From Prorocentrum cordatum (taxonomy: Eukaryota), in NCBI GenBank assembly GCA_963575745.1, contig CAUYUJ010000309.1, forward strand, positions 62,001 to 115,549: DNA of 53,549 nt, read 5' to 3'. Numbering within the stretch: the stretch's first letter is position 1; each line of letters starts with the position of its first letter. Below are positions 5,578 through 53,548 of the stretch, piece after piece. Position numbers and translations under genes: made by a program. The notes below the pieces were generated by a model, which saw nothing but the letters and a program-made list of their open reading frames with translations, ran no database searches and was not told the origin of the DNA.

Positions 5578-35699
<30,122 letters not shown>

Positions 35700-37120
35700 C
35701 TGGCTTGCGTGAAGTCCAGATTCCCTTCCGGGCCTTGCCACGCCCCCCCCCACTCTCCCCTCCGCGCAAGTAAGCAAGGGCGCCCAACTTCGCGCTTCGC
35801 GCTGGGCGCAGCGCGGCGCAGCACCAAACGCGAATAACTTCGCGCTCTCGCGCCGAACCCAAGGGAGAAGAGGAGGATGAGGAAGAATCGGAGCCGAACC
35901 GCGAAGCGCGAAGCCCGAATAACTCCGCCTCCCCTGCCTGGGCGGGGAGGGAGGGGGAGCCCGGGGGGAAGAGGAGTCAGATACGGCGGCCTCCCTGGAG
36001 CGACACCAGACAGCGGAATTGATCAGCGCCGTGATTGAATCGAGGGGAAGCCCCTTCCTTTGACCCCTCCCCGGCCGAGGGGGGCGGTCCAGGAGGGGTC
36101 CGGGGGGAGGAGTCCCGGGGGGGGGGGGGTCAGATACGACGGCCCTGGCCCCGGCACTGGGGTCCCAAGAGGGGGCCCTGGGGTCCTGGGGGAGGTCCCG
36201 CCTTCAGGATCGGCGGCACCGGCCGCAATGCCTTCACCACAGCTTCGCGCCCCCGAAGGCGCCCCCACGTGCAAGAATCTGAGGCAGAACGGCCTCCGGT
36301 CCCCGAAGGCATCCGCGGAGGCCCCCCTGTCGAGAGCCCTGGGGGGCCCAAGAGAGTCGGGGCCCGCAGCACCCACGCAGGCCTCGATCCCAGAACCCCC
36401 AGCCTCGAACCTTCTCCCGCCGCACATCCTGCAGGCAGCGTCGAGGCTCGGGGATCGATTATCGAGGCCGCCTCTCGAGGCTCAAGGCTCGGGAATATCG
36501 GGGACATCTCGAGGCTCGAGGCTCTCGAGGCTCTCCGCACTCGAGGCCGCCCCGCGAAGCTCGAGAGGCTCGTGGCTCTCGAGGCTCTCGGGGCGCACCC
36601 CGCTGCTGGCGCCCGAAGGCGCGCCCCAAGCGGTCGCCGGTGTCCGCCCTTGTGCGGCGTGAGGCCCCCTATCGCGCCCAATGCCCTCGGCGCGGCGTCG
36701 CGCCCGTCATGGTGGGCCGACTTTCTGCCACCACTACCATAGGTAGGAGGAGGAGGAGGAGGAGGAGGAGGAGGAGGAGGAGGAGGAGGAGGACAAGGAG
36801 CAGGAGGTGGAGGTGGAGGTGGAGGAGGACGAGGAGGAGGAGGAGGGAGGTGGAGGAGGAGGAGGTGGACGAGGTGGAGGAGGAGGAGGAGGAGGAGGAG
36901 GAGAAGGGCCTCCCCATCCTCCATTCTCCCCCGTCCTACCTATTGCAGCGGTGATGGAAAATTGGCCCAACATGTCACGCTCTCGAGCACGCTCGACGGC
37001 CTGAGGCCCGAGGGCAGAGGCTCGAGGCCCGAGACCCGAGAACCGAGGCTCGAGGACCGAGGCTCGAGGCCTCGAGGCCCGAGGCCCGAGACGAGGCTCG
37101 AGGGCAGCGGCCTGGAGTGG

Positions 37121-37135
37121 TTTGAGCCAAGATGG
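37121..37135 (-). other. Possible degenerate SL relic
   Basis: CCATCTTGGCTCAAA matches the relic at 13/15 positions and lies ~150 bp upstream of an ATG at 36973. Confidence 0.5.
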
Positions 37136-37348
37136 TGTCCTGAAGGAGGAGGAGGAGGAGGAGGAGGAGGAGGAAGAAGACGACGAAGAGGACATTGAGG
37201 AGAGAGAGGAGAGGAGGAGGAGGAGAGAGGAGGAGGAGGAGGAGAGGAGGAGGAGAGGGAGGAGGAGGAGGGAGGAGGAGGAGGAAGAGGAGGAGGAGGA
37301 GGAGGAGGAGGAGGAGGAGGGAAGAAGGAGGAGTTCAGAGTTCGGAGT

Positions 37349-40626: not shown

Positions 40627-41198
40627 CCATTCAGACAGTTAAGTGAGATACGCGTGCACTCAACGGAGGAGGAGGAGGAGAGGAGGGGACGAGAGAGGGA
40701 CCAGGACAGGGCGATGGTATTTTCATGGCAGCGTGGCGACGCGCATCTCCGCCGAGCGTGGGCCCTGGTGGCCCCACGCTCAACGCGAGCGCGTGGGCCC
40801 TGACGGCCCGCGCGCTCGCGCTCTGGCACGCCTGCGGCCGCTCGGCCGACGCAGGCGTCTGGGAGCAAAGCGGGGTGGGTGGGCACCCGCGCGTCGGCCA
40901 GAGCCGAACGCTACGGACCCAAAATGGCTACCTGAGCCCACACCCCCTCCCACTTAACCTGCAGTCTACAACCAATCAGACTATACAAGTTAAGTGAGAT
41001 ACGCGTGCACTCAACGGAGGAGGAGGAGGAGAGGAGGGGACGAGAGAGGGACCAGGACAGGGCGATGGTATTTTCATGGCAGCGTGGCGACGCGCATCTC
41101 CGCCGAGCGTGGGCCCTGGTGGCCCCACGCTCAACGCGAGCGCGTGGGCCCTGACGGCCCGCGCGCTCGCGCTCTGGCACGCCTGCGGCCGCTCGGCC
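40627..41198 (-). repeat. Split direct repeats of the YR element: B1 (40972-41198), A2 (~40855-40971), B2 (40627-40847)
   Basis: 40637-40847 matches 40988-41198 (offset 351). The match extends to CCAwTCAGAC if a 6-bp deletion (TATACA) is allowed in B2. Confidence 0.85.
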
Positions 41199-41511
41199 AC
41201 GAGAAAAGAAAGACGCAGCCGCGCGCGCGGGGGCGCCCCGCCCGAGTGCGAGGGCGGGATCAGAGGCTGCAAGAGCCTCGCGCGCGCGGCCACTTGCCTG
41301 CAACCTTGAGGCCTTCCGCGCCCGCGCACCCAGAGCGCGGGCGCGGCGCGTGCGCGATGCGCGCAAAAGAACCGAAAAGGGTGGCGGCGCACGAGGCGCC
41401 GGGCGCAGAGCGCAAGTGTGGCCCCGACCGCACGGCGCGCAAGACGCGCAGCACGGCCGGGTCCAGGAAGCACGCGACGTGCGCGCAACGTTAAACTCCT
41501 CCAAGAGGGAG

Positions 41512-41660
41512 GATCGCAGGCGCCACCTGCGTACCGTAGGCTAAAAGAAAGAGATCGCAGGCGCCACCTGCGTACCGTAGGCTAAAAGAAACAAGATCGC
41601 AGGCGCCACCTGCGTACCGTAGGCTCAAGGATCGCAGGCGCCACCTGCGCACGGTAGGCT
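41512..41660. repeat. Four tandem 34-43-bp units with an internal hairpin in the element's 3' UTR
   Basis: GATCGCAGGCGCCACCTGCGTACCGTAGGCT occurs four times; CGCAGG/CCTGCG forms a 6-bp stem with a 5-nt loop. Confidence 0.9.
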
Positions 41661-41754
41661 GAGAGGAGGGCCGACTCACTCACAGGCCGCCGCCTTCAGC
41701 CCGCGCCCGCGATGCCGCGGGCGCTGGCGTCGGGGTACGGGGGGGGCTCCACGC

Positions 41755-44700
41755 CTAGATGGAGGGCGTGTTCCCCCGGCGGTCGCGGCTCTCGTCTCCG
41801 CTGCGGTCTCCGCCGCGCTCACTGGGGTCCCGGGGGCTGCCGCCATCGCCGCCCCTCGACGCGCGACCGTCCGCGCTGGGCCAGTCACGCTCACTCCGGC
41901 CGCGGCTGCCCTGGTCGCCCTTGGAGTGGCCGCCCTTGCCGCTCTTGTCGCCCTTGCCGCCGCTCTTGGAGCCCTTGGCGGCCTTGCCGGAGTGCTTGCC
42001 CTTGACCTTGCCGCCCTTGCCGCCCTTGTCGCCCGCGCCCTTGCCACGCCAGGCTGGGATCCCACCCCCGCCCGCGGCAGCCTCCGCGGCGGCAGCACGC
42101 CGCCGCTTTTTCTCCTGCTCGTACCAGCCGCCGCGAGGAGCGCGAAGCTGCCCAGCGTGCTTCCCGGTCTTACGCCGCGTGCGGCCGGGCGGGGTGTCGC
42201 CGCGCCGCGCCCACGCTGGGTCCCGCGCCAGACTGTGGCTGGGCGACCTCTCGCGCTTGGGCCGGTGGCGGCTGGGCGACCTCTCACGCTTGGGCCAGCT
42301 GAGGTCGCCCGGCGGGCGGTCCCCCTCAGCCCCCGCACCCGTGGCACCCGTGCTGGGGCGCTCGCCATGGCCGACACTGGGGCCCGGCGCCTCCCGCACG
42401 GTGTGGCCGCTCCGCCGGGCCTTCTCCACCACCGTCTTGGGTTTGCCGAAGGCGACGCGGCAAGCCTCGCAGTAGCTCACGTCGCACCCCTTACAGTGCC
42501 ACCGCAGGGCTCCGCTGTTAGCTCCGCCCGCGGGGCACATCTCGCAACCCCAACCGTCTCCCGGGTCAAAGGAGCTCCAGCGCATCTTGAGTGCGCATGT
42601 CGGGCAGGCAGGCGGCTGGATGGTCGGGCCATCCTCCCCGTCGCTGCCTGGGTCAGGGCCGCGAGGCCGGCTCGCCCACTCCGTGACCACCGTGCACGGG
42701 TCCGTCTTGTAGAACCGATAGTTCGACCTCATGCACTCCCGCGCGCGCTTTGCGTCAGCGCGGCGCTGGAACTCCACCAGCACGCACGGCTCCCGCTTGT
42801 GGCGGTGGTCGTACAGGAAGGCGATGTGTTTGACGACCCCAAAGGGCACGACCACCTGCCTGACCACCTCGGCGTCGACGTGGTGCGGTACCCGCTCGAT
42901 GCGGATGATGGACTCGCCCTCGTCGTGCTGGTCACTGGGCTGCTGCTGGGCGCCCTGGCGCTGCTCCTCCTTGCGCCTACGGCGGCTCCTCGAGCGCGGC
43001 TGGCGCTGGGGCGGACCGTCCCCCGCGCCTGGCGCCTCCTCTACCTCGGTCTTCACCTCGAAGGACCGCGGCGGCGCCCCCCCGCTCTTGGGCTTCAGGA
43101 CGGCCTCACGCTTCACGATGTCGGCCTTCGGGGGGGCGCCGCCCGTCTTGGGTTTCAAGACGGCCTCCTCCTCCTGTCCCCTGCGCCCGCGATCGCGAGG
43201 CGCATCGCGCTCGCGATCGCGGCGCTTCGCGCGCGAGGGCGAGCGCAAGGGCGCAGGGCGCCTCTCGCGCTTGCGGACCTCTTCGGCGAGGCGCTCCTGG
43301 CCCGGCGACCGCGCGGGCCGCGGGCGCGCCTTTGGAGCGCTTTTGCTCTGGCGCCGCGCGGCAGCCTGGATGGCCGCACGCGCCAGCGCCGCGGTGACCG
43401 CGTCCTCTCCCGCCTCGAGGACCGGGGCTGGGGTCGACTTCCCCTCGCCCCTGCTCGAGGCGTCGTCGTCGGTGAGCTCCACGACCGCCTCCGCGTCCAC
43501 TGTGCGCATCATGTCGAGCAGCCCCTTGTTGTGCTTGCAGAGCTCGCGGAGCTCCGGCATGGGCTGCCCCTGGAACTGGGCCAAGGCGAGCGCCAGCTTG
43601 GCCGCCTGGCGCTGGACCTTGATATTCGGCCCCGCGCCCACCCCCCACGCACCCCGCTTGCCGTCGACGATCACCAGCTGGCCGTGGTCCTCGCTCGCCC
43701 CCGCGGCCAAGCAAGCCGCCGCGATGCACGGGGCTGCTTCGTGGTCGTGGTTGACCACCTCGACGAGGTCCTCGCTGTCCAGCTCGTTCACCACCGTGTA
43801 CAGGATGTTGTGGGCGGCACTCCGGAGCTCGTCCGACAGCGCGGCCCCCGAGACGACGACGCCGAGGGGGTTCACCGCCATGATGCTGTAGTCATGGCCA
43901 CGCGCCTTGCTCTGGTCCGGGGCCACCAGGCCCACCAGGAATCCCATGATGCACGCTGCCGGAGCGCGGGGCGACGGCGCGGCTGGCGCGCGGGGCTGGG
44001 GTGCGCGCGCTGCTCGCGCGCCTCGCTCTGGAGTGGGAGATGGCTGCGGATGAGAGGACCAAGAGGAGGTGGGCGTGCCTGGGGCGATCGGGAGCGGTAG
44101 CGAAAGGGGGGTCGAGGGCGAGAGGTCCACCGGGATACCCCCACAACGCGAAGCCCCCGCCCTGACCTGAATACCCGTGGGACCCGCCTGCTGCTTTCCC
44201 ACACGCCCATTAACTCCTCGCCCTGGCTCGTATCTCACCAATTCCTCCTCTCCTTCCTCCTCCGTAGTTGACCCTGCTCGCGCCGAAGGGCGCGCCCAGG
44301 GGGGGCGCCCGGGCGCCCAGGCCGGGCGTTCCGAGGGCCTCAGATCGCTCCCAAACTGGGGCGGGTCGCTCCCGGCCAACTGGTCGGGGCGGGCGCCGGT
44401 CACGGCGCCGTCGTCACCGCGGGCGTCCGGGGCCAATAAGGCGTGGCCCTCCGCCATGCCTCGGGCGAACGGAGCCTGACGCCGATGGTCCTCCCAGAGG
44501 TATCCGTGGAAGGCGTCCGAGGACCACCTCCCGAACCTCTTGACCGCTTCCAGGTCGCGACAGGCGTGGTACAACGCCGTCGCGCCCCCGATGCGCAGGG
44601 AGTGGGATCCCATCTGGCCAGCGTCCACGCCGCAGGCGGCAGCCGCGAGTTGGAGGAGCCCCTGCACCTCCTCCCGCATAATCGGGTGGCCATCGGGCCG

Positions 44701-45289
44701 GCGGAACAGGGGGAGCCCCGCCTCGGTTCCTCGTCCAAACCGGTCCGGCAGCTCCCTCTGGAGGTCGGCTAGTGCGTCCACGACACACAACTCCACCCCC
44801 GAACGGTAATGGTTGCGTACGCAACCTGCGTTAAACTGGTCCGTCTTGGACGACGTGATCGTCAGTACTACCTCATCGCAGTCGCTGAGCCTTGCGCTGG
44901 GTGTACCTCCGCGCATCCCCATGTACGACCTGCCAAGCACCACCCTCCCATAACTCCCAGAGCGTCCTCTTGACCAAATAACACCCGAACGCGCGAGAGC
45001 ATGAAAATAGTACCAGCCCTCAAATCGCCGCCCAGAGATGAGGATCGCCAATTCCCCGACCGTGCCTCCCGTGGCTAACAGTAAAACTCTCGTAGCCAGA
45101 CAACGATCCGGCGTGCCGCACTTCCATCTTTCGCCTTTTCCTTCCCATCTCGGCGGATATCCCACCTTCATCGTGGTTCCAGAAGAGCCGGCGCCGATCG
45201 GAGGTCACATCCCCAAACCCGGCCAGGGTGTGGGCATATCGAATGGCGAACAGGCGCTGGCGGATGGTCGTGGCCCGCCTCTTCATCAC
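41755..45289 (-). CDS. Tyrosine recombinase (frameshifted N-terminal part) in frame with a ~730-aa RNA-binding-type extension
   Basis: Core-binding-like TIRQRLFAIRYAHTLAG in ORF 45020-45289. In the 1138-aa ORF: SKTD (~44840-44851), HSLRIGGAT (His 44602-44604) and GRWSSDAFHGY (Tyr 44500-44502). Downstream of an in-frame Met at 43947 come a dsRBD-like WGVGAGPNIKVQRQAAKLALAL, RS/RD-rich tracts, an RRM (IRIERVP...PCVLVEF), a CxxC-x16-CxxC-x13-CxxC-x4-CxxC-type finger and a GK-rich tail. Confidence 0.85.
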
Positions 45290-45839
45290 CTAGTACAGGT
45301 ACACGACATACCGATGAGGTCTCCCTCATCTTATAGCGGCGTCCCGAGTCTCGCCCCTCTTATGGGCCCGCCCTCGTGCCTCCGCCAAGTACCCAGTTAA
45401 CGCCACCCGCGGCACTCGGTCTCGCCCCGCCGTCCCTATCGCAAGCTTGGCCAACTATCCACCGCTGGTCGGTCGCAATCCAGCCGCGGCGTCGTGAGTT
45501 CCACTTGAATCCCTGCGCGCCCCCCGAGCCGCGACCAGCCACGCGGGCTTCACAGCGCGGACAGGGCCTGCGGGACGCCGACGGCCTTGCGCGGGTGCCG
45601 CGCCGGCCCACCCCCATGGCGCTTGCCTGGGCATCCCCGCCTCCAACAGCGAAGGTCACCGCCCCGACCCGCACCCCGCCTGCCTCGTCCTCCCCTGCTG
45701 CGGTGGACCGCGCGGTAGCAGGGGGGTCGAGCTGGTCCGCCAACCGAGCGGCGTCGTCCGTCGTCTTCCCCGCCTCCAGCGCAGCCTCGAATGGCCCGCT
45801 TGGGCGATCGGGGGCCTGAAGCCAGGCCTTTAGCCACAG

Positions 45840-48800
45840 CTAAACCATCTCGTCATTAGCGAGTCGGTCGTGATCGGGCCCGACGCCAGCGCGCGCCCCG
45901 GGTGCCTCGCCTGCGCTCGCTGCCTCTACGGCCTGCCTCAGCAGGCGCTCCGCCCACTGGAGCACCCAGCGGGCCGTGCGACGCGGGAGTGCACGAGTGG
46001 CCTGCCGCATGCGCTCGGCGATCGGCATACCTCCAAGGCCCAAGGCATCCCACAGCTCCGCCGTGCCCCCCTGGGCGCACCAGATTTCTTTCGGGTGCAG
46101 GGCTCGCACGGTCCAGCCGCCCTCGGACCCTTCCAGGATCAGGGTGTTCGCATAGCCCTTCCACGGGTCGGGCTTCGCCCGTGCCGTATGGCAGGGCCCG
46201 CGCGGATCATGAATCACCACGCGCTGGGCCCGCCCGCCTCCCGCGGGCTGCCACGTGCCCCGCGGCCAAGGCATCATGCGATCCCCCGTCGTCGAGATCC
46301 GAGGGTCCACGAGCAAGGTGCCGTTGTCGAGGTCCAGGCGGAGCTCATCCAGCGGTGGCCGCCCTGCCTCCTTCCAGAGCTGGCAGAGGCCGCGTGGCTC
46401 CACGCTGGGCTGTCCCAGGGGGGGTACGGGGCCCGATGCCCGAACCCGTTCCCCGCAACCCCAAACCTGGACCGCCCGCGCGCGTGCCGTGACGTCGCCG
46501 AAGTGCGTGCACAGTAGGCGCGTCTCTGGGGAGAGTGCCACATAGCCGAGGCGCCGTAAGCGCGCCCCTAGTCGCACTGCAGCGTAGTTGACGGGGGCGT
46601 CGAGCAGCACGGCCAGTGGCCGAGTGGTGATCAGCAGCCGCTCCAGGCCCGTCGCTTCGCGTCCACCGGGGTCCTCCGATAGTGACACGCACAGCCAGCG
46701 GGTCCGCGGGGCCCCAGTGGGGTCCTTGGGGTGGTCCCCGTCGTCCGGGTCCCATCGGTCACCGACATCCCACGGCGCTAGCAGCGCCGACCCACCGAGG
46801 CTCTCCCATGCCTCCCCAAAGGGGGGCCACGCGGTTCCCACCTCCAGCAGCCGCGCCCCCTCGACCTGCAGGGGGGCGTAGCGTGGCAGGGCCTCCCGGG
46901 CTCCTTTGACTTGGAGTGCAGCCGCGCGCCAGGGCCCGTCGTCTCCTGGCATCCGCAGCTCGCGCTGGGCGGCCTCCCCCACCAGCTCGCCCCACGGTGC
47001 TGCCGGCGACAGCTCGGTCCATCCGGCCTCCGCCATCCGCTGGCGTACCTCCTCCACCGTGGCACGAGTAATGAAGTCGGCCAGCTCGTTGTGGTAAGTC
47101 CGTAAGTAAAGCCCGTCCAGGACCCGGAACTTGTACCGTGGCTCCAGCATGGCCAGGACTCGAAGCAGGTGGCGCGCCACCGCGTTCCGCGCCCGGCGGC
47201 GTCGCAGCCAGCGGCTGACATTGCTGTTGTCAGTGACGTACGGCAATAGCAGCTGGAACCAGTCCGGGCCTTTCTCGGCCGCCAAGGCTATCAGACAGAG
47301 GAGTTCGACCACCGCGATGATCTCCCCCTCCCCCTGCCACGTGACCCCAGGGGCGGAGCGGAGCGTCTCCAGATAGGGAGCCGCCTCCGCCACGATGTAC
47401 TCGCGCGAGGACCAGTCCAGCGCACCGATCCGATCCAGGGTGGCATCGCCTCCCAGCCAGCGCAGCTTGCCGAGCGCCCCCGGGAGTGCAAGGGCCTCGC
47501 GAAGGCCTAGCAGGCCCTCGAAGGAGGTCTCGAAGTTACCCTCGACCGGCATCTCAAAGCAGACGCGCAGCCAATCCAAGGTCTGGTGCCACTCGTCCCA
47601 CGCAGCCTCTACCATCTCGGGGTCGCCCGGCGGATGGACGTAGGCCTGACCTGGGTCACCCGACAGCATTCGGTGGACCGCTGGGAGCTCCAGGCTCAGG
47701 GCCGGAGCTGCGCAGGCGCAGAACTGGCCGAGCCCACTTAGCTCCCTCGCGGTTCGCAGCCGGACCATGCGGCAGCCGAAGCTCAGCTCCGGCTCCGCCA
47801 ATAGGAAGCGCATCTTCATGGCCTTGGGCTCCGGGAGTCCAACTCGCTCGCGCTCGAAGCCCATACTGAGCCCCCAGATAATCTGCGTGGTGGAAGGCTC
47901 CCCCTCGGCGTCCCTCTTGCTGACGTTCACTGCTTCGGACCCAAACACCTCACGTATGGAGGCATCCAATGCGTCGCAGGCCATCCACGGTCGGACCCCA
48001 ATGTCGGGCTCCACCACCACAGGGTCATCCAAGAGCCACTCCGAGTGGAAGTGGGTGGTGTCGTGCCAGTGCGGCTCCCCAGGCCGATAGCTCTCGTGGA
48101 GCTCCCTCGCCGCCAGGGCGAGCATCATGTAATTGCCTGGGGCTCCCGCCCACCCAAACACCATGGCTAGGTAAACGACTCTGACGTCCCCCTCGATGCC
48201 AGCGTGGGCCCCCGGTAACGAGGTGCCAAAGTCCCCGACGTCCGCCGGGGCGAAGTCCAACCACTTGAAGGCCCGCGAGACGTCCCGCTTGGCGCAGAGG
48301 AGGCGCGCTCCGGGGTGGCGCGCGCGATGCCATACCGCCGTCCTCGCCACTTGCCGATGGCGTGGCTGGACGGCAGGCGGGTGGTCGCGCTTGTGCGTGG
48401 CGGCGTTGGCCGAGAGCATCGCATGGATCATACGCCCTTCGGACGATAAGGTTCTGTCCGGTAGCTGCTTCGGTACCCTCCCCAGCGGGGCTTCCACCAG
48501 CTCCGTCAGAAAACCCTCTGCCGCCTGGGACGCCACCAGGGCGATCCCCCAGGTCACATCCGCCCATACCTTCTGGTAGGCCTCGTCGATGTGGGCTCGC
48601 ACGCTGGGGTACGGCTGGGCTCGCTTGCGCCTCCGCGGCGCGCCCCGCCGCGCGGAGGCCCCCCCTTCCGCTAGCTCCCGGACGTACTCGAAGTGCTCTC
48701 GGCTTAAACACCGTCGCACCTTGTCCCCCAGGACGCCCCGAAGGGGGTTGCCTAGGCGCTCGAGGCGCGCGCGCCTAAGCAGCGCGGCCGCTTCCTTCAG

Positions 48801-48851
48801 GGACCCCGTCCGCTGGAGGAGCTGATCCCCCAGCCCTACCAGGGTCCGCAT
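45840..48851 (-). CDS. YR-element polyprotein segment: reverse transcriptase + RNase H + degenerate C5-MTase-like domain
   Basis: 1003-aa ORF. RT: GRVPK...GRMIH, KRDVSRAF, MVFGWAGAP, WLLDD (48024-48038). DIRS-type RNase H: GGDAT, IAVVEL, VTDNSNV, HNELADFITR. C-terminal MTase motif VI-X-like strings: RPLAVLLD, LRRLGY, HFGDVTARAR, RALHPKE, RQATRALP. The frame stays open past single TAG codons at both ends (48936-48938, 45840-45842). Confidence 0.9.
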   Translation of the reverse strand: MRTLVGLGDQLLQRTGSLKEAAALLRRARLERLGNPLRGVLGDKVRRCLSREHFEYVRELAEGGASARRGAPRRRKRAQPYPSVRAHIDEAYQKVWADVTWGIALVASQAAEGFLTELVEAPLGRVPKQLPDRTLSSEGRMIHAMLSANAATHKRDHPPAVQPRHRQVARTAVWHRARHPGARLLCAKRDVSRAFKWLDFAPADVGDFGTSLPGAHAGIEGDVRVVYLAMVFGWAGAPGNYMMLALAARELHESYRPGEPHWHDTTHFHSEWLLDDPVVVEPDIGVRPWMACDALDASIREVFGSEAVNVSKRDAEGEPSTTQIIWGLSMGFERERVGLPEPKAMKMRFLLAEPELSFGCRMVRLRTARELSGLGQFCACAAPALSLELPAVHRMLSGDPGQAYVHPPGDPEMVEAAWDEWHQTLDWLRVCFEMPVEGNFETSFEGLLGLREALALPGALGKLRWLGGDATLDRIGALDWSSREYIVAEAAPYLETLRSAPGVTWQGEGEIIAVVELLCLIALAAEKGPDWFQLLLPYVTDNSNVSRWLRRRRARNAVARHLLRVLAMLEPRYKFRVLDGLYLRTYHNELADFITRATVEEVRQRMAEAGWTELSPAAPWGELVGEAAQRELRMPGDDGPWRAAALQVKGAREALPRYAPLQVEGARLLEVGTAWPPFGEAWESLGGSALLAPWDVGDRWDPDDGDHPKDPTGAPRTRWLCVSLSEDPGGREATGLERLLITTRPLAVLLDAPVNYAAVRLGARLRRLGYVALSPETRLLCTHFGDVTARARAVQVWGCGERVRASGPVPPLGQPSVEPRGLCQLWKEAGRPPLDELRLDLDNGTLLVDPRISTTGDRMMPWPRGTWQPAGGGRAQRVVIHDPRGPCHTARAKPDPWKGYANTLILEGSEGGWTVRALHPKEIWCAQGGTAELWDALGLGGMPIAERMRQATRALPRRTARWVLQWAERLLRQAVEAASAGEAPGARAGVGPDHDRLANDEMV

Positions 48852-49194
48852 GGCTTCGGGGTCATACTCAGGGTGCTCCGTGCAGAAGGTCAGGTAGACC
48901 GTGGCCAGCTCCGCCGGGCTGCACCCGTCGAGGTCCTACGCGATATCTCTGGCCGGATCCTCGCAAGGGGGTCGAGTCTTGCCCGCACTCACCTCCCCCT
49001 GTGCCCTCGCTCACCTCCCCCTGTGGCCTTGCAATGGGGGCTTAGGGGGAGAGAAGTTGGGTAAGTGAAGAGAGGGGTAAAGTGGGGGGGGGTAAATTGA
49101 GGTGTGGGAGGGGGGGGGAAGCCCGGCCAGGTGCCTTACAGCTCTTGCATATATAATGCTCGTCATGTCTGAGGCTCTTTTAATACTGAAAGAG

Positions 49195-52100
49195 TTAAAT
49201 AAGATTGAGAAAATTTAAAATACAATAAAGCCTACCGCATTTTGAGCCGTCCCCTGAGGCCTGCAGGCGCTCAATTCCAGTGAAGTCGACGCCCTGCAGG
49301 CGCCCGGGCGCCTCCGCCCGGGCGATTTTGGGGGACGCCCCCGGGCCATCCTCCCATATAGGCGCCAACTGCCGACGCAGTTGGCTCACCGACCAGCGGA
49401 GATAGGCCCCTTTCAACACCTTTGCCCACGCGGCGCAAAGGCGGGGGGCCCAAACCTGCGCCTCCTTGGTGCGCTTAATGCCCGAGCCCGGCACGTGATC
49501 CTTCAGCTCGACGCGGTGGTGGTCACGGGGGCAACGTCGCGCCAACAGCAGAGCGTGCAGATGCAGCCGGGGGCTGACGAGCCACCAGCTGCCCTTGCGA
49601 TAGCGGCTCTCTGGCGCGTCGGACGGGGCCTTACCCCAGGCGCACATGTGGATCGGGACGATCATGGCCCCCGTCGCTCGACGCAGCTCGTGCATCGGGG
49701 CCTGGCCCCAAATCTTGGGGTAGCGGCCCGAGGGGCAGTAGGACTCGATGAGAAACTCCTTGCCAGCGTCGTGTAGGATGCGGCAGGTGTCGCACGTGAA
49801 CTGTGTGTGGCTGTTACCCACGCGCTCGAACTCTTTGGAGCCATCCCCCTCGGGGTGCTCCCACGTGCGGGTGCCCTGCGGGGTCCCGCCCGGCTGGGTC
49901 ATGAGCCCGAGGTCGGTGTACGAGCCACACGGGGTACCCCAGCACCAAACGTCGGCCACGTCGGGGCCCATGGGGGTCCGTGCGGCCTCCTGTAGGCGCG
50001 CGCGGACCGCTGGGTCGAGGGTGTCATGATCCGGCCGTGGGCCGGATTCTCGGAGGGGGTCGTCGTAATATTCGATCGGCTCCAGCACCCGGATGCCCTC
50101 GGCGCGAAGCGCGGCCGACCAATATCCCGAACCGGCGTACACCTCCTGGGCGATCAAACCGTACGCGAACGCGGGGTCGTGTCGAATTGGCATCGCGTTC
50201 GCTTCCAGGAGGCGTGCCTGGACGTCGGCTGGATGTTCCCCGAACGAGGCTGGCGCGCGTCCCACTGCGCGGCCCGCCCGACCTTCCGCTGCCTTGCAGT
50301 GGGTGCAGGGCGCGCTCTTGCCCGGGACGGTGGGTTCAACGTCCGGTCCTTCATCGAGCATCTCGCGCCAGCCGACACTTACGATCTCGCGGGACAGGCG
50401 TCCTGCGTGCCCCCAGCGCTGGCCTAGGGCCGCCGCCTCCGCGTGGGAGCGCGGGCGCAAGGCGCGCATATGGCCACGCCAGATCAGGAGCGGAATTACG
50501 TGATCCTCCGCGCCGACCCCCGTCCCCATTAGGTGGTCCACGCATAGGCGCCCACTGCCGTTGACACGGAGCACCTGGAGCGTGACGGCGTCGAGGTCGG
50601 CGACGGGGCATGCTGCCAGGCAGCGATAGTCCTTGTCGTGGTGCGGGTGCACCGCATCGTGGACGTAGGAGCGGACATCGGCCTCCAGGGCCGTGATCCA
50701 CGGCGGGGAGTCGCCCAGGGCACGCAGGGCCTCGTGGGCCTCCTCCCATAGCGCATGGCGATACGTCGCGGCCAACTGCTGCACCGCGTCCGGGCTGGGC
50801 TCACCTGTGCCCCCGCCCGCGCGTAGCAGGAGCACCCCCGCAGCTACGTGCAGTAGCAGGCACTGCCGCTCCTCGGTGTCGCCCACCTCCAGGCCCATCG
50901 CCTGGCCCATCTCCTCTGTAGGGCCGAGGCGGTCCCGATAGTCGATGAAGTCCCACTGGATGCGGGTGTCCTCGTCCCAGAAGGTATAGGACCCGCGGCC
51001 TATCAGCCCGCCGGGGTCCCACGCAACCGGGCCAACCTCGGCCCCGCCCTCGGTGACGTATCCTGCGGCGCAGCTAAGCGCCTCATGCAGGTCGGCTGCC
51101 TCGCTGCTGAGACCCCGATGGCCTCGGTCCACGGCTTCCTCGAGGGCTCGCTCCATAAGCCGCTCCCCGCGCAGGCGCGCCCCCAAGACGCGCCCGCGCA
51201 CGTGGCTCTGCAAGTGCTCGCTGGCCCCCTTCAGAGGTGCGAAGATGCCCTCGGCTTCGAGCTCCTGCATGAGTTTGAGGCGAAGCTCCGGCCCATCACC
51301 CGCGGGCTGGGCGTCCCATGTGGCCGCCGCGCGCGGGTGGTCGTGGTCTTCGAGCCATCCGAAGTCGGGGCCCTTAACCGCTTCCCGGAGGTCGGATTCC
51401 ATCGCGGTAAGCTGGAGCGCAGTGTAGTCGTCCGGGGCCTGCCCCGGGCCCGGGTCGCCCGCTGCTCGCGAGCCGCTGCCACGGCCACGACCCTTCTCCT
51501 TCTGGGAGTCAGGGGCAGCAGGGGGGGACGTGTCCTCGCCAACCTTCTCGGCCTCGGCTGCCTTGGCTTGCGAGCGTAGCTGCGCAATCATCCCATCCAC
51601 CTGCTTGGGGTCGATCCAGGGCGCCCCAAGGAGCCCCCCGCGCCTCGTGAGCTGCATGACTACCGAGTAGTCCAATCCGCGCGTTGACTTGATGGGGTCA
51701 TGGGAGTTAGGGCAGTCGCAAGCCTTCCGCGAGCAGCCCATGTGCGTGGTGGCCCCCCAGCAGATAGGGACGTTGTCTTTATTGCGGGGCGCATGCGCCA
51801 CGGATCGCGTCCGCTCCGGGCGTGTTAGTTCCTTGCCCGCTGGGTACGCCCTCTTGGGGGCTGTCCCCGCTCGGGCCCCGGTGCCCGCCTTGGGCCCCGC
51901 CTTCGGCTGGGGCCCAGCCCCCGCCTTGGGCCTGTCATCCCCCTGCGCCGTGGGCCGGGGATCGCCCATCTCCTCGCTCCCTCCCGCTTTGGGCGGTCGC
52001 TTCGTGAGGTGGGCGTTCAGCTGCCCATTGAGGAGGCGCGTGCGGCCTTGCGCCGGGGCACGACCACCTGCTGGTAGTAGGCGTTCGGGTCCCCGAGGTC

Positions 52101-52266
52101 GAACGTTCGGGGCAAAACGTAGCCGTTCTCCGGCATGAGTAGGATGTACTTGATGTCCTCCCTCCTCGGGTTCTCGGCGTCGAGCTCCCGACAGAGCCGG
52201 CGCCTCAGCTCCCGCAACTCCTCGACCCAGGTGCTTCGGAGCTCTTCCCACAGATCCTTGACCCAA
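49195..52266 (-). CDS. YR-element polyprotein segment: CCCH-type Zn finger + putative Cys-protease-like domain + C5 cytosine DNA methyltransferase
   Basis: 1023-aa ORF, with the true frame probably entered by frameshift near 52040. C-x8-C-x6-C-x3-H at ~51700-51762. QCLLLH...LLIWRGHMRAL at ~50865-50458. MTase motif I EVYAGSG (~50125-50145), motif IV WGTPC (Cys 49927-49929), motif VI FLIES, HMCAWG...RYRK, and motif X-like AQVWAPRLCAAWA. Confidence 0.8.
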   Translation of the reverse strand: MGQGSVGRAPKHLGRGVAGAEAPALSGARRREPEEGGHQVHPTHAGERLRFAPNVRPRGPERLLPAGGRAPAQGRTRLLNGQLNAHLTKRPPKAGGSEEMGDPRPTAQGDDRPKAGAGPQPKAGPKAGTGARAGTAPKRAYPAGKELTRPERTRSVAHAPRNKDNVPICWGATTHMGCSRKACDCPNSHDPIKSTRGLDYSVVMQLTRRGGLLGAPWIDPKQVDGMIAQLRSQAKAAEAEKVGEDTSPPAAPDSQKEKGRGRGSGSRAAGDPGPGQAPDDYTALQLTAMESDLREAVKGPDFGWLEDHDHPRAAATWDAQPAGDGPELRLKLMQELEAEGIFAPLKGASEHLQSHVRGRVLGARLRGERLMERALEEAVDRGHRGLSSEAADLHEALSCAAGYVTEGGAEVGPVAWDPGGLIGRGSYTFWDEDTRIQWDFIDYRDRLGPTEEMGQAMGLEVGDTEERQCLLLHVAAGVLLLRAGGGTGEPSPDAVQQLAATYRHALWEEAHEALRALGDSPPWITALEADVRSYVHDAVHPHHDKDYRCLAACPVADLDAVTLQVLRVNGSGRLCVDHLMGTGVGAEDHVIPLLIWRGHMRALRPRSHAEAAALGQRWGHAGRLSREIVSVGWREMLDEGPDVEPTVPGKSAPCTHCKAAEGRAGRAVGRAPASFGEHPADVQARLLEANAMPIRHDPAFAYGLIAQEVYAGSGYWSAALRAEGIRVLEPIEYYDDPLRESGPRPDHDTLDPAVRARLQEAARTPMGPDVADVWCWGTPCGSYTDLGLMTQPGGTPQGTRTWEHPEGDGSKEFERVGNSHTQFTCDTCRILHDAGKEFLIESYCPSGRYPKIWGQAPMHELRRATGAMIVPIHMCAWGKAPSDAPESRYRKGSWWLVSPRLHLHALLLARRCPRDHHRVELKDHVPGSGIKRTKEAQVWAPRLCAAWAKVLKGAYLRWSVSQLRRQLAPIWEDGPGASPKIARAEAPGRLQGVDFTGIERLQASGDGSKCGRLYCILNFLNLI

Positions 52267-53548
52267 TGGTCTGGGAACTCCGATGGGTCCCTCTCGAAGG
52301 CCGCCTCCAAGAACCCTAACGACCGCCGACGCTCCGCCCCGGTGCGTGCGACCCTATATGAAATGGACTCGAACCTTCTGGAGCTCTCGCCGACCGGGCC
52401 CTCTTGGCAACCAGGTCGCCTATTGTGGTGAATCTGGAGCCGTTGGCGTGCTCCAGCTTGTCGTTCCACAGGTAAGCCGATAGCCAATCGGAAGTCCTCG
52501 AGCACGAGCGCGGGGGCGACAAAGATTCGTTCCTACTCGCCAGGTCAGTGAATAAAATCATATCTACAACAAACTAAATAAAAAAAAAAAGAAAAAAGAA
52601 AACAATAATGATTAAAAAAAAAAATGTGATGGGGCCCGTCCCGAAGGCGAGCGCCGCGTAGCCGTGTGCCACACGGTTGGTAACCAGGCAGGGAAACCCG
52701 ATCGTCATGAGCGTGCTCTTGGAGTGCGCACACATGCGCTTGAGTGAGTCGAACAAGTCCTTCCCCGTGATACCCTCGCAGGCCTCAACCACGAAGGTGT
52801 TGCATCCCCGGGCTATGTAAAGATCAAGTTCCTCGTCCCGACCGATCCCTGCCCTGGTGCCCCGGGCCTTCTTGTCGCCCTCGGTGGCCCGCGCCTGCCG
52901 CTCGGCGGCGAGGACGTGGCGTTCAGTGAGGCGGTTCTGGCGATCCAGGCGCTCGATAATCTGGGCTTCGGCCTCGACTGTAAGCCCGCCCAGGGCCCCC
53001 GCCGCCCCGGCGTCGTCTGGACCCCCAGCTCGCTCCCCACCCAGGCCGCCCCCGTGGGGCGTCTGGCCAGTGAGGTGGCCAAGGACCGAGGCCCCGTCGA
53101 GGAGCGGGTTGGCCCCACGGGCGGCCCCCCCGCGTCCATCGCGTGCCAGCAGGCCCCGATCACCCAGCAAGCCCCGTCGTGGGCCCGTGGGGTGGATGGG
53201 GGGCATGGCACCGAAGAGCTCGCGTCGGGGTCCCTGCTTCGGGCTGGGATCCCGTCCCCGCGCCGAGCGACTCCGCGACCCCACACGTGAGAGGCTCCCC
53301 TGCAGGGGAACCTTGTCGGCGGCCGCAGCACGCTCCCGCGCGCGCGCTTCCAGCTGCGCATCCTCCAAATCCGCGAGGGCGCGCTCTAGGTCGGACCCCA
53401 GTGGGCCCGCCGCTGCCACCTGTGCGACCCTCCGCCGCAGCTGCCGCTCCGCCTGATCAAGCGGAACCCCGAGCAGGTCCGCGGCCATACCTAATGCACT
53501 GAGAGCCGCCGCTTTGCCCCCCCGTCCTTTGAGATCCTCGGCTCGCAA
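52017..53548 (-). pseudogene. Gag-like N-terminal region of the YR element (frameshifted or interrupted; 5' partial)
   Basis: ORFs 52574-53548 and 52017-52505 give helical, coiled-coil-like protein (LERALADLEDAQLEARARE; WVKDLWEELRSTWVEELRELRRRL). They lie directly upstream of the CCCH finger and are broken by an AT-rich patch at ~52550-52625 and by frameshifts. The gag call rests on position. Confidence 0.6.

What the first reader, a model, noticed from the sequence alone, without database searches (positions are those of the whole stretch)
49400..50170. C5 cytosine methyltransferase with intact catalytic Pro-Cys placed upstream of RT
Seen: YAGSG (motif I), GTPC (motif IV), IES (motif VI, Glu kept but Asn replaced), RYRK and a motif X-like helix. 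Established: these define 5mC DNA MTases, and retrotransposon-borne Dnmts occur in dinoflagellates. Inference: the element may methylate its own cDNA to mimic host DNA or self-regulate; the EN-to-ES change may alter activity or specificity.
Basis: partly seen in the sequence, partly recalled or inferred. Interest (0 to 1): 0.72.

Follow-up and report, generated by a model that had tools for sequence, protein, structure and literature searches.

The report
Hidden cytosine-methyltransferase domain in a retrotransposon
A mobile element, probably from a dinoflagellate, carries a compact enzyme domain shaped like a DNA cytosine methyltransferase with its key catalytic residues conserved, which standard domain models miss, so such elements may carry more DNA-methylating enzymes than is currently counted.

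Summary
The motifs exist, on the minus strand, in residues 685-965 of a 1023-aa ORF (49195-52266). Pfam PF00145 does not detect the domain. It nevertheless belongs to a family of 323 cluster representatives. Across that family the SAM-loop Gly (80/82), the motif IV Pro-Cys (Cys 106/113) and the motif VI Glu (115/118) are conserved.

An AlphaFold model (pLDDT 95) matches C5 cytosine methyltransferases first. Every Foldseek PDB row shown is a C5 methyltransferase, and M.HhaI gives Z 12.1. The best structural analogues are compact viral proteins of about 210-220 aa.

The domain has no target-recognition domain and no motif IX. In their place sits a conserved Cys/His cluster.

It is a fixed module of a tyrosine-recombinase (DIRS-like) retroelement. 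The module order, Gag-like, unknown domain, methyltransferase, RT/RNase H, second methyltransferase-like domain, recombinase, recurs in four independent metagenome loci.

The window's copy is decaying. Seven of 40 highly conserved residues are changed, the ORF1-ORF2 spacer is replaced, and recombinase homology is split across frames.

Verdict: a real methyltransferase-fold domain. It is a new variant of the known dinoflagellate retrotransposon methyltransferases. Activity and substrate are untested.

The parts
49372..50214 (-). Compact C5-cytosine-methyltransferase-fold domain (ORF1 residues 685-965)
   Evidence: AlphaFold pLDDT 95, pTM 0.92. Foldseek PDB: all rows shown are C5 methyltransferases. 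VIA-align: top 10 are all C5 methyltransferases, M.HhaI Z 12.1. BFVD best match TMt 0.79.
50125..50139 (-). Motif I, YAGSG (SAM-binding F/Y-A-G-x-G loop after strand 1)
   Evidence: Family: first Gly 80/82; second position Gly 47 and Ala 26 of 81. hhalign aligns it with DLFAGIGG of Dcm.
49927..49938 (-). Motif IV, GTPC (catalytic Pro-Cys loop after strand 4)
   Evidence: Family: Pro 93/113, Cys 106/113. hhalign aligns it with FPCQPFS of Dcm.
49741..49749 (-). Motif VI, IES (Glu in strand 5; Ser in place of the canonical Asn)
   Evidence: Family: Glu 115/118; next residue Ser 67, Asn 40 of 118.
49594..49605 (-). RYRK, motif VIII-like stretch ahead of strand 7
   Evidence: Weakly conserved: first Arg 42/101; third position Arg 45 and Lys 30 of 102; fourth position Lys 66 and His 27 of 103.
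49513..49644 (-). Conserved Cys/His cluster (C875, C912, H916, and position 918) where canonical enzymes have the target-recognition domain. A metal site is inferred, not shown.
   Evidence: Family: Cys 106/112, Cys 84/94, His 80/90, His 77/88. The window has Arg at the last position.
49195..52266 (-). ORF1, 1023 aa: Gag-like N-terminus, unknown middle domain, methyltransferase domain
   Evidence: The same modules recur in the same order in L003, L004, L006 and L007.
51700..51762 (-). CCCH-type zinc-knuckle-like motif in the Gag-like part (residues 169-189)
   Evidence: Read from the translation and its counterpart in P0005. The motif assignment is recalled, not tool-tested.
50215..51366 (-). 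Conserved middle domain of ORF1 (residues 301-684), function unknown
   Evidence: Conserved in L003, L004, L006 and L007. No Pfam hit. No usable ESM Atlas hit.
52017..53548 (-). Upstream ORFs of the element (52574-53548 and 52017-52505). The element's 5' end runs off the window.
   Evidence: Homologous stretches lie upstream of ORF1 in L003, L004, L006 and L007 and in the N-terminus of P0005.
49003..49228 (.). AT-rich spacer private to this copy; it supplies ORF1's last residues and its stop codon
   Evidence: Depth falls to 4.8 (X6) and 1.8 (X8) in bin 48924-49180, against 121-674 (X6) elsewhere. An X8 contig skips 224 letters, with 55 others in their place.
46932..48851 (-). ORF2 residues 1-640: RT and RNase H by motifs
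   Evidence: Invariant or nearly invariant K188, D190, A194; F232, G233, G236, P238; D275, D276; N309, K312; W326, G327. Consensus GGDAT, TDNxNV and YHNxxxDW stretches. No Pfam, NCBIfam or PDB sequence hit.
45843..46934 (-). ORF2 residues 640-1003: second, probably inactive, methyltransferase-like domain with a motif IX-like VRALHPKEIWCAQGG
   Evidence: ESM Atlas: 29 of 30 hits in PF00145-bearing sets, score 0.92. Foldseek on a low-confidence model (pLDDT 53.6): M.HhaI E 3e-8. VIA-align shows only a generic class I methyltransferase fold. The motif IV-like site has Pro-Cys in 1 of 6 sequences.
44419..45313 (-). Tyrosine-recombinase remnant (HSLRIGGAT and GRWSSDAFHGY boxes), with homology split across two reading frames
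   Evidence: Pfam Phage_integrase E 0.002, below the cut-off. Relative P0057 E 1.9e-5. tblastn matches lie in frames -3 and -1.

Best explanation
SHOWN. The flagged stretch encodes a genuine but very divergent and compact member of the C5 cytosine methyltransferase fold class. It keeps the SAM-binding glycine loop, the Pro-Cys nucleophile loop and the motif VI glutamate. It has no target-recognition domain and no motif IX; a conserved Cys/His cluster sits in their place. It is a fixed module of a family of tyrosine-recombinase (DIRS-like) retroelements. The module order is Gag-like, unknown domain, methyltransferase, RT/RNase H, second methyltransferase-like domain, recombinase.

INFERRED.
- In functional copies the domain is made as part of the element's polyprotein and acts as a SAM-dependent pyrimidine-C5 methyltransferase.
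- The likeliest substrate is the element's own cDNA, so that the new copy carries the host's CG methylation mark. This is the role proposed in print for SymbioDIRS-Dnmt3.
- The host is a dinoflagellate. This rests on one named relative.

The copy in this window is a decaying member of a high-copy, recently active family, and may itself no longer be functional.
For: Fold:
- AlphaFold pLDDT 95, pTM 0.92.
- Every Foldseek PDB row shown is a C5 methyltransferase: DNMT1 (best E 8.9e-6), DNMT3A/B, M.HhaI, DIM2, MET1, DNMT2.
- In a Foldseek-independent scan of 48,161 chains, ranks 1-10 are all C5 methyltransferases. M.HhaI gives Z 12.1 (rmsd 3.7, 199 aligned), DNMT3A 11.6, DNMT3B 11.4.
- In BFVD the best matches are small proteins: one unnamed of 210 aa (TMt 0.79, E 2.2e-7) and a 218-aa putative cytosine methyltransferase of Tetraselmis virus 1.

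Sequence:
- hhalign against Dcm orthologues aligns motif I with DLFAGIGG and motif IV with FPCQPFS (Prob 45%, E 2.2e-4).

Conservation:
- motif I Gly 80/82.
- motif IV Cys 106/113.
- motif VI Glu 115/118.

Family size:
- 323 representatives at E<=1e-3, and 144 at E<=1e-10.

Linkage to the element:
- 29 stored relatives other than ORF2 itself also match the RT-like part of ORF2 at E<=1e-30.
- The module order recurs in L003, L004, L006 and L007.
- L003 and L004 carry intact FAGSGG, GTPCTS and VVEN motifs.

Copy number:
- 540 contigs (X6) and 3611 contigs (X7) lie on the element. Of these, 143 and 1744 are at least 99% alike.

Literature:
- Retrotransposon DNMTs, de novo CG methylation by a DIRS-borne Dnmt3, and the cDNA-methylation idea are in PMC5890265 (abstract, section 6 and search passages read).
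Against: - PF00145 gives no hit at E<=1. None of 17 long relatives hits it at E<=0.01.
- A profile search of PDB sequences finds no methyltransferase.
- The hhalign probability is only 45% and covers motifs I-IV only. Beyond motif IV the alignment is unreliable.
- Foldseek TM-scores to PDB chains are modest (0.35-0.49).
- Short-chain dehydrogenases follow closely in the VIA-align list, at Z 10.2 downward.
- There is no target-recognition domain and no motif IX.
- The motif VIII Arg residues are poorly conserved: 42/101 and 45/102.
- Asn of 'ENV' is Ser in 67 of 118.
- PMC5890265 reports that the SymbioLINE-Dnmt it tested did not methylate DNA in yeast (passage), so intact motifs do not guarantee DNA activity.
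- CpG observed/expected in the element is 0.97, so there is no deamination footprint.
- This copy is damaged. It differs at 7 of 40 positions that are at least 80% conserved, including one Cys/His-cluster position. Its ORF1-ORF2 spacer is replaced. Recombinase homology lies in two frames.
- Four of six metagenome copies have a damaged methyltransferase domain.
Confidence: 0.62

Rival explanations
1. The domain is an RNA m5C methyltransferase, like DNMT2. It would mark the element's genomic RNA, or an RNA used in priming, rather than DNA.
For: - The domain sits on the Gag-like side of the element, next to a CCCH-type knuckle motif.
- It has no DNA target-recognition domain.
- DNMT2 enzymes are among the fold matches: S. 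pombe Dnmt2 Z 10.3 and S. frugiperda DNMT2.
- PMC5890265 raises RNA methylation for the ORF1-borne SymbioLINE-Dnmt (passage).
Against: - DNMT2 does not rank above the DNA enzymes; Z values are tied within about 2.
- In relatives the domain is fused in frame to RT (P0003; L006 all in one frame). It is therefore as much part of Pol as of Gag.
- No substrate test was possible.
Confidence: 0.15
2. The domain is a catalytically inert methyltransferase-fold module. It would serve as a nucleic-acid- or protein-binding scaffold in the particle, as DNMT3L does for DNMT3A.
For: - PF00145 fails to detect it.
- Asn of motif VI and the Arg residues of motif VIII are not conserved.
- There is no target-recognition domain.
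- A related ORF1-borne DNMT was inactive on DNA in yeast (PMC5890265, passage).
Against: The residues that matter only for chemistry are the best conserved ones: the Cys nucleophile (106/113), Glu (115/118) and the SAM-loop Gly (80/82). The truly degenerate domain of the same element, the ORF2 C-terminus, shows what loss looks like. It keeps Pro-Cys in only 1 of 6 sequences.
Confidence: 0.12
3. Nothing new: the domain is simply a diverged copy of the already described SymbioDIRS-Dnmt3 or SymbioLINE-Dnmt.
For: - It occurs in the same kind of host and has a DIRS-like context.
- The paper describes one SymbioDIRS structure with a different domain order in Pol, and notes that Symbiodinium DIRS reverse transcriptases are too divergent for Pfam (PMC5890265).
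- DNMT3A and DNMT3B are among the tied top fold matches.
Against: - Those DNMTs were defined by PF00145 (Fig. 1 legend). This family is invisible to PF00145: 1 of 34 at E=0.3, and 0 of 17 long relatives at E<=0.01.
- SymbioLINE ORF2 has Exo_endo_phos and RVT_1, and neither is found here.
- The main supplementary file with the architectures could not be read.
- No described sequence was available for a direct comparison.
Confidence: 0.15
4. The motifs are a coincidence on a generic Rossmann-type fold, for example a dehydrogenase-like or other SAM enzyme.
For: Short-chain dehydrogenases reach Z 8.4-10.2 in the same list.
Against: - Ranks 1-10 are all C5 methyltransferases.
- All Foldseek PDB rows shown are C5 methyltransferases.
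- Most named BFVD rows are cytosine methyltransferases.
- Pro-Cys and Glu are conserved at the strand 4 and strand 5 positions.
- hhalign pairs motifs I and IV with those of Dcm.
Confidence: 0.04

Closest known systems
SymbioDIRS-Dnmt3 (Symbiodinium DIRS-like retrotransposons with a Dnmt3 domain; PMC5890265)
   Same: A tyrosine-recombinase retroelement of a (probable) dinoflagellate that carries a C5-methyltransferase-fold domain. Its RT is too divergent for Pfam. The proposed role is methylation of the element's cDNA.
   Different: There the DNMT is detected by PF00145, groups with eukaryotic Dnmt3 and lies within Pol. Here the domain is invisible to PF00145. It lies between a Gag-like/unknown region and RT. 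A second, degenerate methyltransferase-like domain follows RNase H.
SymbioLINE-Dnmt (orphan DNMT as ORF1 of a LINE; PMC5890265)
   Same: The DNMT-like domain lies in an ORF upstream of the RT ORF, and its origin is untraceable by sequence.
   Different: The LINE's ORF2 has an endonuclease (Exo_endo_phos) and RVT_1. Here ORF2 has RNase H-type motifs and is followed by a tyrosine recombinase. No Exo_endo_phos or RVT_1 hit was found.
Compact viral cytosine methyltransferase-like proteins of 210-220 aa (BFVD A0A0A0RJX0; Tetraselmis virus 1 A0A2P0VN45)
   Same: These are the best structural matches (TMt 0.79 and 0.63). Their size is similar, which suggests a catalytic core without a large target-recognition domain.
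   Different: Sequence identity is only 11-16%. No relative of this family was found in the viral contig scan. Whether those proteins have the Cys/His cluster, or any activity, was not examined.
M.HhaI and DNMT3A/B catalytic domains
   Same: Same fold: Z 12.1 for M.HhaI, and 11.6 / 11.4 for DNMT3A / DNMT3B. Equivalents of motifs I, IV and VI occupy the same topological positions.
   Different: No motif IX and no target-recognition domain. The Q-x-R-x-R motif is not conserved, and Asn of ENV is often Ser. A conserved Cys/His cluster is added. Sequence similarity lies below Pfam detection.
DIRS1-group Pol with a Dam-like adenine methyltransferase domain (cited in PMC5890265; bioRxiv 10.64898/2026.05.21.726589)
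   Same: The position of the second methyltransferase-like domain, after RT and RNase H and before or next to the recombinase gene, matches the place of the 'MT' domain of DIRS1-like elements.
   Different: The domain here resembles C5 methyltransferases, not Dam-type adenine enzymes. That assignment rests on a low-confidence model.
DNMT3L (inactive paralogue that partners DNMT3A)
   Same: This is an analogy for the ORF2 C-terminal domain only: a methyltransferase-like fold with degenerate catalytic motifs, encoded alongside an apparently competent one.
   Different: No evidence of binding was obtained. The analogy comes from recall, not from a test.

Membership tests
C5 cytosine methyltransferases (DNMT superfamily; Pfam PF00145) | Class I SAM-methyltransferase fold, most similar to known C5 enzymes | tested here: met
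   pLDDT 95. All Foldseek PDB rows shown are C5 methyltransferases. VIA-align ranks 1-10 are all C5 methyltransferases, Z 10.3-12.1.
C5 cytosine methyltransferases (DNMT superfamily; Pfam PF00145) | Motif I, F-x-G-x-G SAM loop | tested here: met
   YAGSG in the window. Family Gly 80/82. Aligned with DLFAGIGG of Dcm.
C5 cytosine methyltransferases (DNMT superfamily; Pfam PF00145) | Motif IV, Pro-Cys nucleophile | tested here: met
   GTPC in the window. Family Pro 93/113, Cys 106/113. Aligned with FPCQPFS of Dcm.
C5 cytosine methyltransferases (DNMT superfamily; Pfam PF00145) | Motif VI, E-N-V | tested here: inconclusive
   Glu is kept (115/118). Asn is replaced by Ser in the window and in 67 of 118, and kept in 40 of 118. 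Residue-level superposition on a solved enzyme was not available.
C5 cytosine methyltransferases (DNMT superfamily; Pfam PF00145) | Motif VIII, Q-x-R-x-R | tested here: inconclusive
   RYRK lies at the expected place ahead of strand 7. Conservation is weak: Arg 42/101, and Arg 45 plus Lys 30 of 102.
C5 cytosine methyltransferases (DNMT superfamily; Pfam PF00145) | Target-recognition domain and motif IX between motifs VIII and X | tested here: not met
   Only about 45 residues lie between strand 7 and the C-terminal helix. They hold a C-x3-H-x-H type cluster instead.
C5 cytosine methyltransferases (DNMT superfamily; Pfam PF00145) | Score over the PF00145 gathering threshold | tested here: not met
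   No hit at E<=1. 1 of 34 relatives at E=0.3. 0 of 17 long relatives at E<=0.01.
C5 cytosine methyltransferases (DNMT superfamily; Pfam PF00145) | SAM binding and methyl transfer to C5 of cytosine | not testable with these tools
   Needs biochemistry.
Tyrosine-recombinase (DIRS-order) retrotransposons | Reverse transcriptase and RNase H | tested here: inconclusive
   Invariant K-x-D-x3-A, F-G-x2-G-x-P, D-D, N-x2-K and W-G columns, and consensus GGDAT, TDNxNV and YHNxxxDW stretches. My recall reads these as RT motifs A-E and RNase H. No Pfam, NCBIfam, PHROG or PDB sequence hit supports it.
Tyrosine-recombinase (DIRS-order) retrotransposons | Tyrosine recombinase instead of a DDE integrase | tested here: inconclusive
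   Phage_integrase E 0.002, 18.4 bits against a cut-off of 27.1. Relative P0057 E 1.9e-5, 25 bits. HSLRIGGAT and GRWSSDAFHGY boxes are present. No hit passes the curated cut-off.
Tyrosine-recombinase (DIRS-order) retrotransposons | Split or inverted terminal repeats (A-coding-B-A-B) | tested here: inconclusive
   The element's 5' end runs off the window. Downstream there are only a 211-nt exact direct repeat (40637-40847 and 40988-41198) and a tandem of about 41 nt (41503-41666). Their relation to the element is unknown.
SymbioDIRS-Dnmt3 | A PF00145-detectable Dnmt3-clade domain inside Pol | tested here: not met
   No PF00145 hit in ORF1 or ORF2, nor in 17 long relatives. Clade membership could not be tested because no described sequence was at hand.
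SymbioLINE-Dnmt | ORF2 with an Exo_endo_phos endonuclease and RVT_1 | tested here: not met
   Neither is found in ORF2 or its relatives. A recombinase follows instead.

The most novel reading that the evidence does not exclude
The element encodes a two-part cytosine methyltransferase system. One part is a compact catalytic module without a recognition domain, made with the Gag-side polyprotein. The other is a catalytically dead, C5-methyltransferase-derived module that keeps a recognition-domain-like and motif IX-like region, at the end of Pol. The dead module would guide or activate the live one on the cDNA, as DNMT3L does for DNMT3A. More broadly, this Pfam-invisible clade (323 clusters) would be a third, uncounted class of retrotransposon methyltransferase. 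It could contribute to the unusual, near-complete CG methylation reported for Symbiodinium.
Probability: 0.12. Interest if true: 0.8.

Novelty: new variant of a known kind. Interest (0 to 1): 0.58.

Why it matters
Counts of DNA methyltransferases in dinoflagellates and their mobile elements rest on PF00145 (PMC5890265, Fig. 1 legend). That model misses a family of at least 323 sequence clusters with the fold and the conserved chemistry residues of a C5 methyltransferase.

If the family is active, three things follow:
- It adds a third class of retrotransposon-borne cytosine methyltransferase.
- It gives a natural example of a minimal catalytic core without a recognition domain, which is useful for asking how specificity is supplied.
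- It bears on who writes the unusual methylome of these algae.

If it is inactive, it is a clear case of a methyltransferase fold kept for another purpose in a retroelement.

In the held library, searches for 'SymbioDIRS' and 'SymbioLINE' found those names in only two listed papers. The 2026 preprint names only those two classes for Symbiodiniaceae (passage).

Tried and rejected
- Complex prediction of the ORF1 methyltransferase domain with the ORF2 C-terminal domain gave no verdict (score 0.00, controls not run). It says nothing for or against binding.
- A profile of the family against PDB sequences gave only a chance-level match at E 0.46.
- Profiles of the ORF2 alignments against PDB found no RT, methyltransferase or recombinase. 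The only hits were DnaJ, from one fused relative.
- hhalign of the ORF2 C-terminus against Dcm, and of the ORF1 domain against the ORF2 C-terminus, gave Prob 0.3% each. No detectable sequence relation exists, although the top local match to Dcm pairs VRALHPKEIWCAQG with RPRRLTPRECARLMG.
- hhalign of the family against Dcm with a loose alignment setting did not pair the ENV motif.
- NCBIfam and PHROGs found nothing for ORF1 or ORF2. One relative gave a weak hit to a PHROG DNA methyltransferase at E 0.053.
- The ESM Atlas gave no usable hit for the ORF1 middle domain.
- No whole genome is held for the window, so copy number and dN/dS among genomic copies could not be computed.
- The viral contig scan found no relative.
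- Earlier-findings look-ups returned nothing.
- An RNA-library contig of 216 nt lies on 49696-49911 (X20). One contig in a metatranscriptome does not show transcription.
- 28 fixed differences between this copy and the other copies gave 14 synonymous and 14 non-synonymous changes. The set is too small and hand-selected to measure selection. It is 28 of the 40 listed rows. Six rows in the upstream ORFs were dropped, and six that were minority variants in a run. One kept row, 47223, is also a minority variant in X7.
- My first translation of the region was in the wrong frame and was discarded.
Full report
**1. The observation**

The finding lies on the minus strand, in a 1023-aa open frame at window 49195-52266 (ORF1). 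The four motifs are present:
- YAGSG, residues 710-714, window 50125-50139.
- GTPC, residues 777-780, window 49927-49938.
- IES, residues 840-842, window 49741-49749.
- RYRK, residues 888-891, window 49594-49605.

A second open frame of 1003 aa follows on the same strand at 45840-48851 (ORF2). It starts 343 nt downstream of the ORF1 stop.

**2. Standard domain models do not see it**

- Pfam gives no PF00145 hit at E<=1, either for ORF1 or for the 281-aa domain alone.
- Of 34 aligned relatives, one reaches PF00145, at E=0.3.
- Of 17 long relatives, none hits PF00145, RVT_1 or RNase_H at E<=0.01.
- A family profile against all PDB sequences finds no methyltransferase.
- NCBIfam and PHROGs find nothing for ORF1.

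**3. It is nevertheless a real, conserved domain**

An exhaustive phmmer search of 1.84 billion representatives with residues 685-965 gave 323 proteins at E<=1e-3, 144 at E<=1e-10 and 27 at E<=1e-30.

I aligned 160 domain stretches from the stored relatives. Many are fragments, so n differs by column:
- Motif I: Gly 80/82; second Gly position Gly 47 and Ala 26 of 81.
- Motif IV: Pro 93/113, Cys 106/113, next-but-one Ser/Thr 108/111, then Phe/Tyr 99/110.
- Motif VI: Glu 115/118, followed by Ser 67 or Asn 40 of 118.
- RYRK stretch, much less conserved: first Arg 42/101; third position Arg 45 and Lys 30 of 102.
- Further near-invariant positions: a G-T-R triplet (Gly 107/114, Arg 109/113), Trp 105/114, and a Cys/His set (Cys 106/112, Cys 84/94, His 80/90, His 77/88).

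The Cys/His set lies where canonical enzymes carry the target-recognition domain. That it binds a metal is my inference; I could not measure distances in the model.

**4. Fold**

With a 34-sequence alignment, AlphaFold gave mean pLDDT 95.0 and pTM 0.92. The strand and helix order fits a class I methyltransferase:
- strand 1, then the GxG loop;
- strand 4, then Pro-Cys;
- a long helix, then strand 5 carrying Glu;
- strands 6 and 7, then two C-terminal helices.

Search results:
- Foldseek against the PDB returned 73 matches at E<=0.001. Every row shown is a C5 cytosine methyltransferase: DNMT1 (best E 8.9e-6), DNMT3A/B, M.HhaI, DIM2, MET1, DNMT2 and a prophage enzyme. TM-scores normalised to the query are 0.35-0.49.
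- A Foldseek-independent scan of 48,161 chains put C5 methyltransferases at ranks 1-10: M.HhaI Z 12.1 (rmsd 3.7, 199 aligned), DIM2 11.7, DNMT3A 11.6, DNMT3B 11.4. Short-chain dehydrogenases begin at Z 10.2. The margin over generic Rossmann folds is real but not large.
- Among predicted viral structures the best matches are small proteins. One is an unnamed 210-aa protein (TMt 0.79, E 2.2e-7). Another is a 218-aa putative cytosine methyltransferase of Tetraselmis virus 1 (TMt 0.63).

At sequence level, hhalign of the family against a shallow profile of Dcm orthologues gave Prob 45% and E 2.2e-4. It paired the family's FAGxG with DLFAGIGG, and PCtSF with FPCQPFS. Beyond motif IV that alignment is unreliable.

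**5. What is missing**

Between strand 7 and the C-terminal helix there are only about 45 residues. There is no target-recognition domain and no motif IX. This is a catalytic core only.

**6. Context: a tyrosine-recombinase retroelement**

ORF2 residues 1-640 carry columns that are invariant or nearly so in a 10-sequence alignment:
- K188-x-D190-x3-A194;
- F232-G233-x2-G236-x-P238;
- D275-D276;
- N309-x2-K312;
- W326-G327.

The same alignment has consensus GGDAT, TDNxNV and YHNxxxDW stretches. From recall I read these as RT motifs A-E and RNase H. No profile library confirms that. PMC5890265 states that Symbiodinium DIRS reverse transcriptases do not align well with Pfam seeds (methods passage).

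The next minus-strand frame begins with HSLRIGGAT and GRWSSDAFHGY boxes. It gives a weak Phage_integrase hit (E 0.002, below the cut-off). A relative reaches E 1.9e-5.

Linkage of the modules:
- 29 stored relatives of the methyltransferase domain, other than ORF2 itself, also contain the RT-like region at E<=1e-30.
- In four of six metagenome loci the order is upstream ORFs, Gag-like part, middle domain, methyltransferase, RT, ORF2 C-terminal domain. It is followed by the recombinase where the contig reaches that far (L003, L006). The four loci are L003, L004, L006 and L007. L005 and L008 hold only the methyltransferase part.
- In L006 all modules lie in one frame, and in P0003 the methyltransferase domain is fused to RT.
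- No relative was found in viral contigs.
- The only named relatives are from Polarella glacialis. The dinoflagellate host is an inference from that and from the literature.

**7. A second methyltransferase-like domain**

ORF2 residues 640-1003 were not part of the finding. The evidence is as follows:
- Language-model features place the region next to PF00145-bearing clusters (29 of 30 hits, score 0.92).
- Its AlphaFold model is poor (pLDDT 53.6, from 8 sequences).
- Even so, Foldseek gives M.HhaI at E 3.2e-8 over about 350 columns, then M.MpeI, Dcm and M.HaeIII.
- VIA-align supports only a generic class I methyltransferase fold, for residues 22-166 (Z 9-10.8, all tied).
- The family keeps a motif IX-like VR-x-L-x3-E-x-W-x2-(Q/N)-G-G and a motif VIII-like G-D-x2-A-(R/K)-x-(R/K).
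- The motif IV-like site holds Pro-Cys in only 1 of 6 sequences, and the glycine loop is degenerate.
- hhalign to Dcm is not significant.

I rate 'C5-methyltransferase-derived and inactive' at roughly even odds.

**8. State of this copy**

- It differs from the family at 7 of 40 positions that are at least 80% conserved. One of these is Arg for His in the Cys/His cluster.
- Laid contigs show a high-copy family. X6 has 540 contigs, of which 143 are at least 99% alike. X7 has 3611, of which 1744 are at least 99% alike.
- At several sites all other copies carry the family-consensus residue where the window does not: Asn772, Ser843 and Asp854.
- The AT-rich spacer 49003-49228, which supplies ORF1's tail and stop codon, is replaced in other copies.
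- Recombinase homology is split between two frames.
- Among the six metagenome copies, two have an intact domain (L003, L004). Four are damaged: an 18-residue deletion after the motif VI Glu (L005), loss of Pro-Cys and deletions (L006), truncation (L007), and Leu-Cys with in-frame stops (L008).
- CpG observed/expected is 0.97 in the element.

**9. Interpretation**

Shown:
- a C5-methyltransferase-fold catalytic core;
- its chemistry residues are conserved;
- it is a fixed module of a DIRS-like element family.

Inferred:
- SAM-dependent C5 methylation;
- cDNA as the likeliest substrate.

The rivals are RNA methylation, an inert scaffold, or a diverged member of the described SymbioDIRS-Dnmt3. 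Note that the SymbioLINE-Dnmt tested in PMC5890265 did not methylate DNA in yeast (passage).

**10. Novelty**

Retrotransposon DNMTs of Symbiodiniaceae are known. The 2026 preprint 10.64898/2026.05.21.726589 names only SymbioDIRS-DNMT3 and SymbioLINE-DNMT for them (passage). A search for those two names found them in only these two listed papers of the held library.

The present family differs in four ways:
- it is invisible to PF00145;
- it lacks a recognition domain;
- it has a Cys/His cluster;
- it is paired with a second, degenerate domain.

I file it as a new variant of a known kind. The paper's main supplementary file, which holds the architectures and motif alignments, could not be read. 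Overlap with a described structure therefore cannot be fully excluded.

Noticed in passing
window 45843-46934 (-): The C-terminal third of ORF2, after RT and RNase H, looks like a second, catalytically degenerate C5-methyltransferase-like domain with a motif IX-like VRALHPKEIWCAQGG. The evidence is ESM features, Foldseek on a low-confidence model, and motifs.
   Followed up: partly
window 50215-51366 (-): The middle domain of ORF1 (residues 301-684) is conserved in all related loci. It has conserved Cys- and His-containing stretches (ERQCLLLHV, HPHHDKDYR, RGHMRAL). It has no Pfam or ESM Atlas match and its function is unknown.
   Followed up: partly
window 49003-49228: This AT-rich stretch of 224 nt between ORF1 and ORF2 is absent from, or replaced in, nearly all other copies. 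Depth collapses there, and one contig has 55 other letters in its place. It creates ORF1's last residues and its stop codon.
   Followed up: partly
window 44419-45313 (-): Homology to the tyrosine recombinase of relatives lies in two different frames, and the stretch 45313-45789 has no match. The recombinase gene of this copy appears broken.
   Followed up: partly
window 41755-44450 (-): The long frame continues past the recombinase part into a region with an RRM_1 hit (E 1.7e-4, above the cut-off) and a Cys-rich stretch. This region has no counterpart in the related loci, so it may be host sequence read through.
   Followed up: no
window 40637-40847 and 40988-41198; 41503-41666: There is an exact 211-nt direct repeat 351 nt apart, and four tandem copies of a unit of about 41 nt. 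Both lie just downstream of the element's last frame. They could be terminal-repeat material, but this is untested.
   Followed up: no
window 37349-38911 (-); 36709-37363: A 520-aa frame gives a weak RNase_H hit (E 0.0016), which may be another retroelement remnant. A long GGA/GAG-rich simple repeat lies beside it.
   Followed up: no
proteins P0152 and P0172 (relatives): Some predicted proteins that hold this family's methyltransferase domain also carry a NADAR domain (P0152, E 3.9e-14) or a DnaJ domain (P0172, E 1.8e-10). These may be gene-model fusions with neighbouring genes.
   Followed up: no
window 49195-52266, public runs: Near-identical sequence (word share 0.22-0.60) is held by 12 runs from 8 coded studies. 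They are labelled marine, freshwater and urban metagenomes, plus three coded organisms. Only four runs were laid, so the spread of the host is not established.
   Followed up: partly
window 10911-11010; whole window: There is a run of 100 N, which is an assembly gap. G+C is strongly patchy, from 0.36 to 0.73 per 2 kb. The element is at 0.69 and the first 36 kb at 0.57.
   Followed up: no
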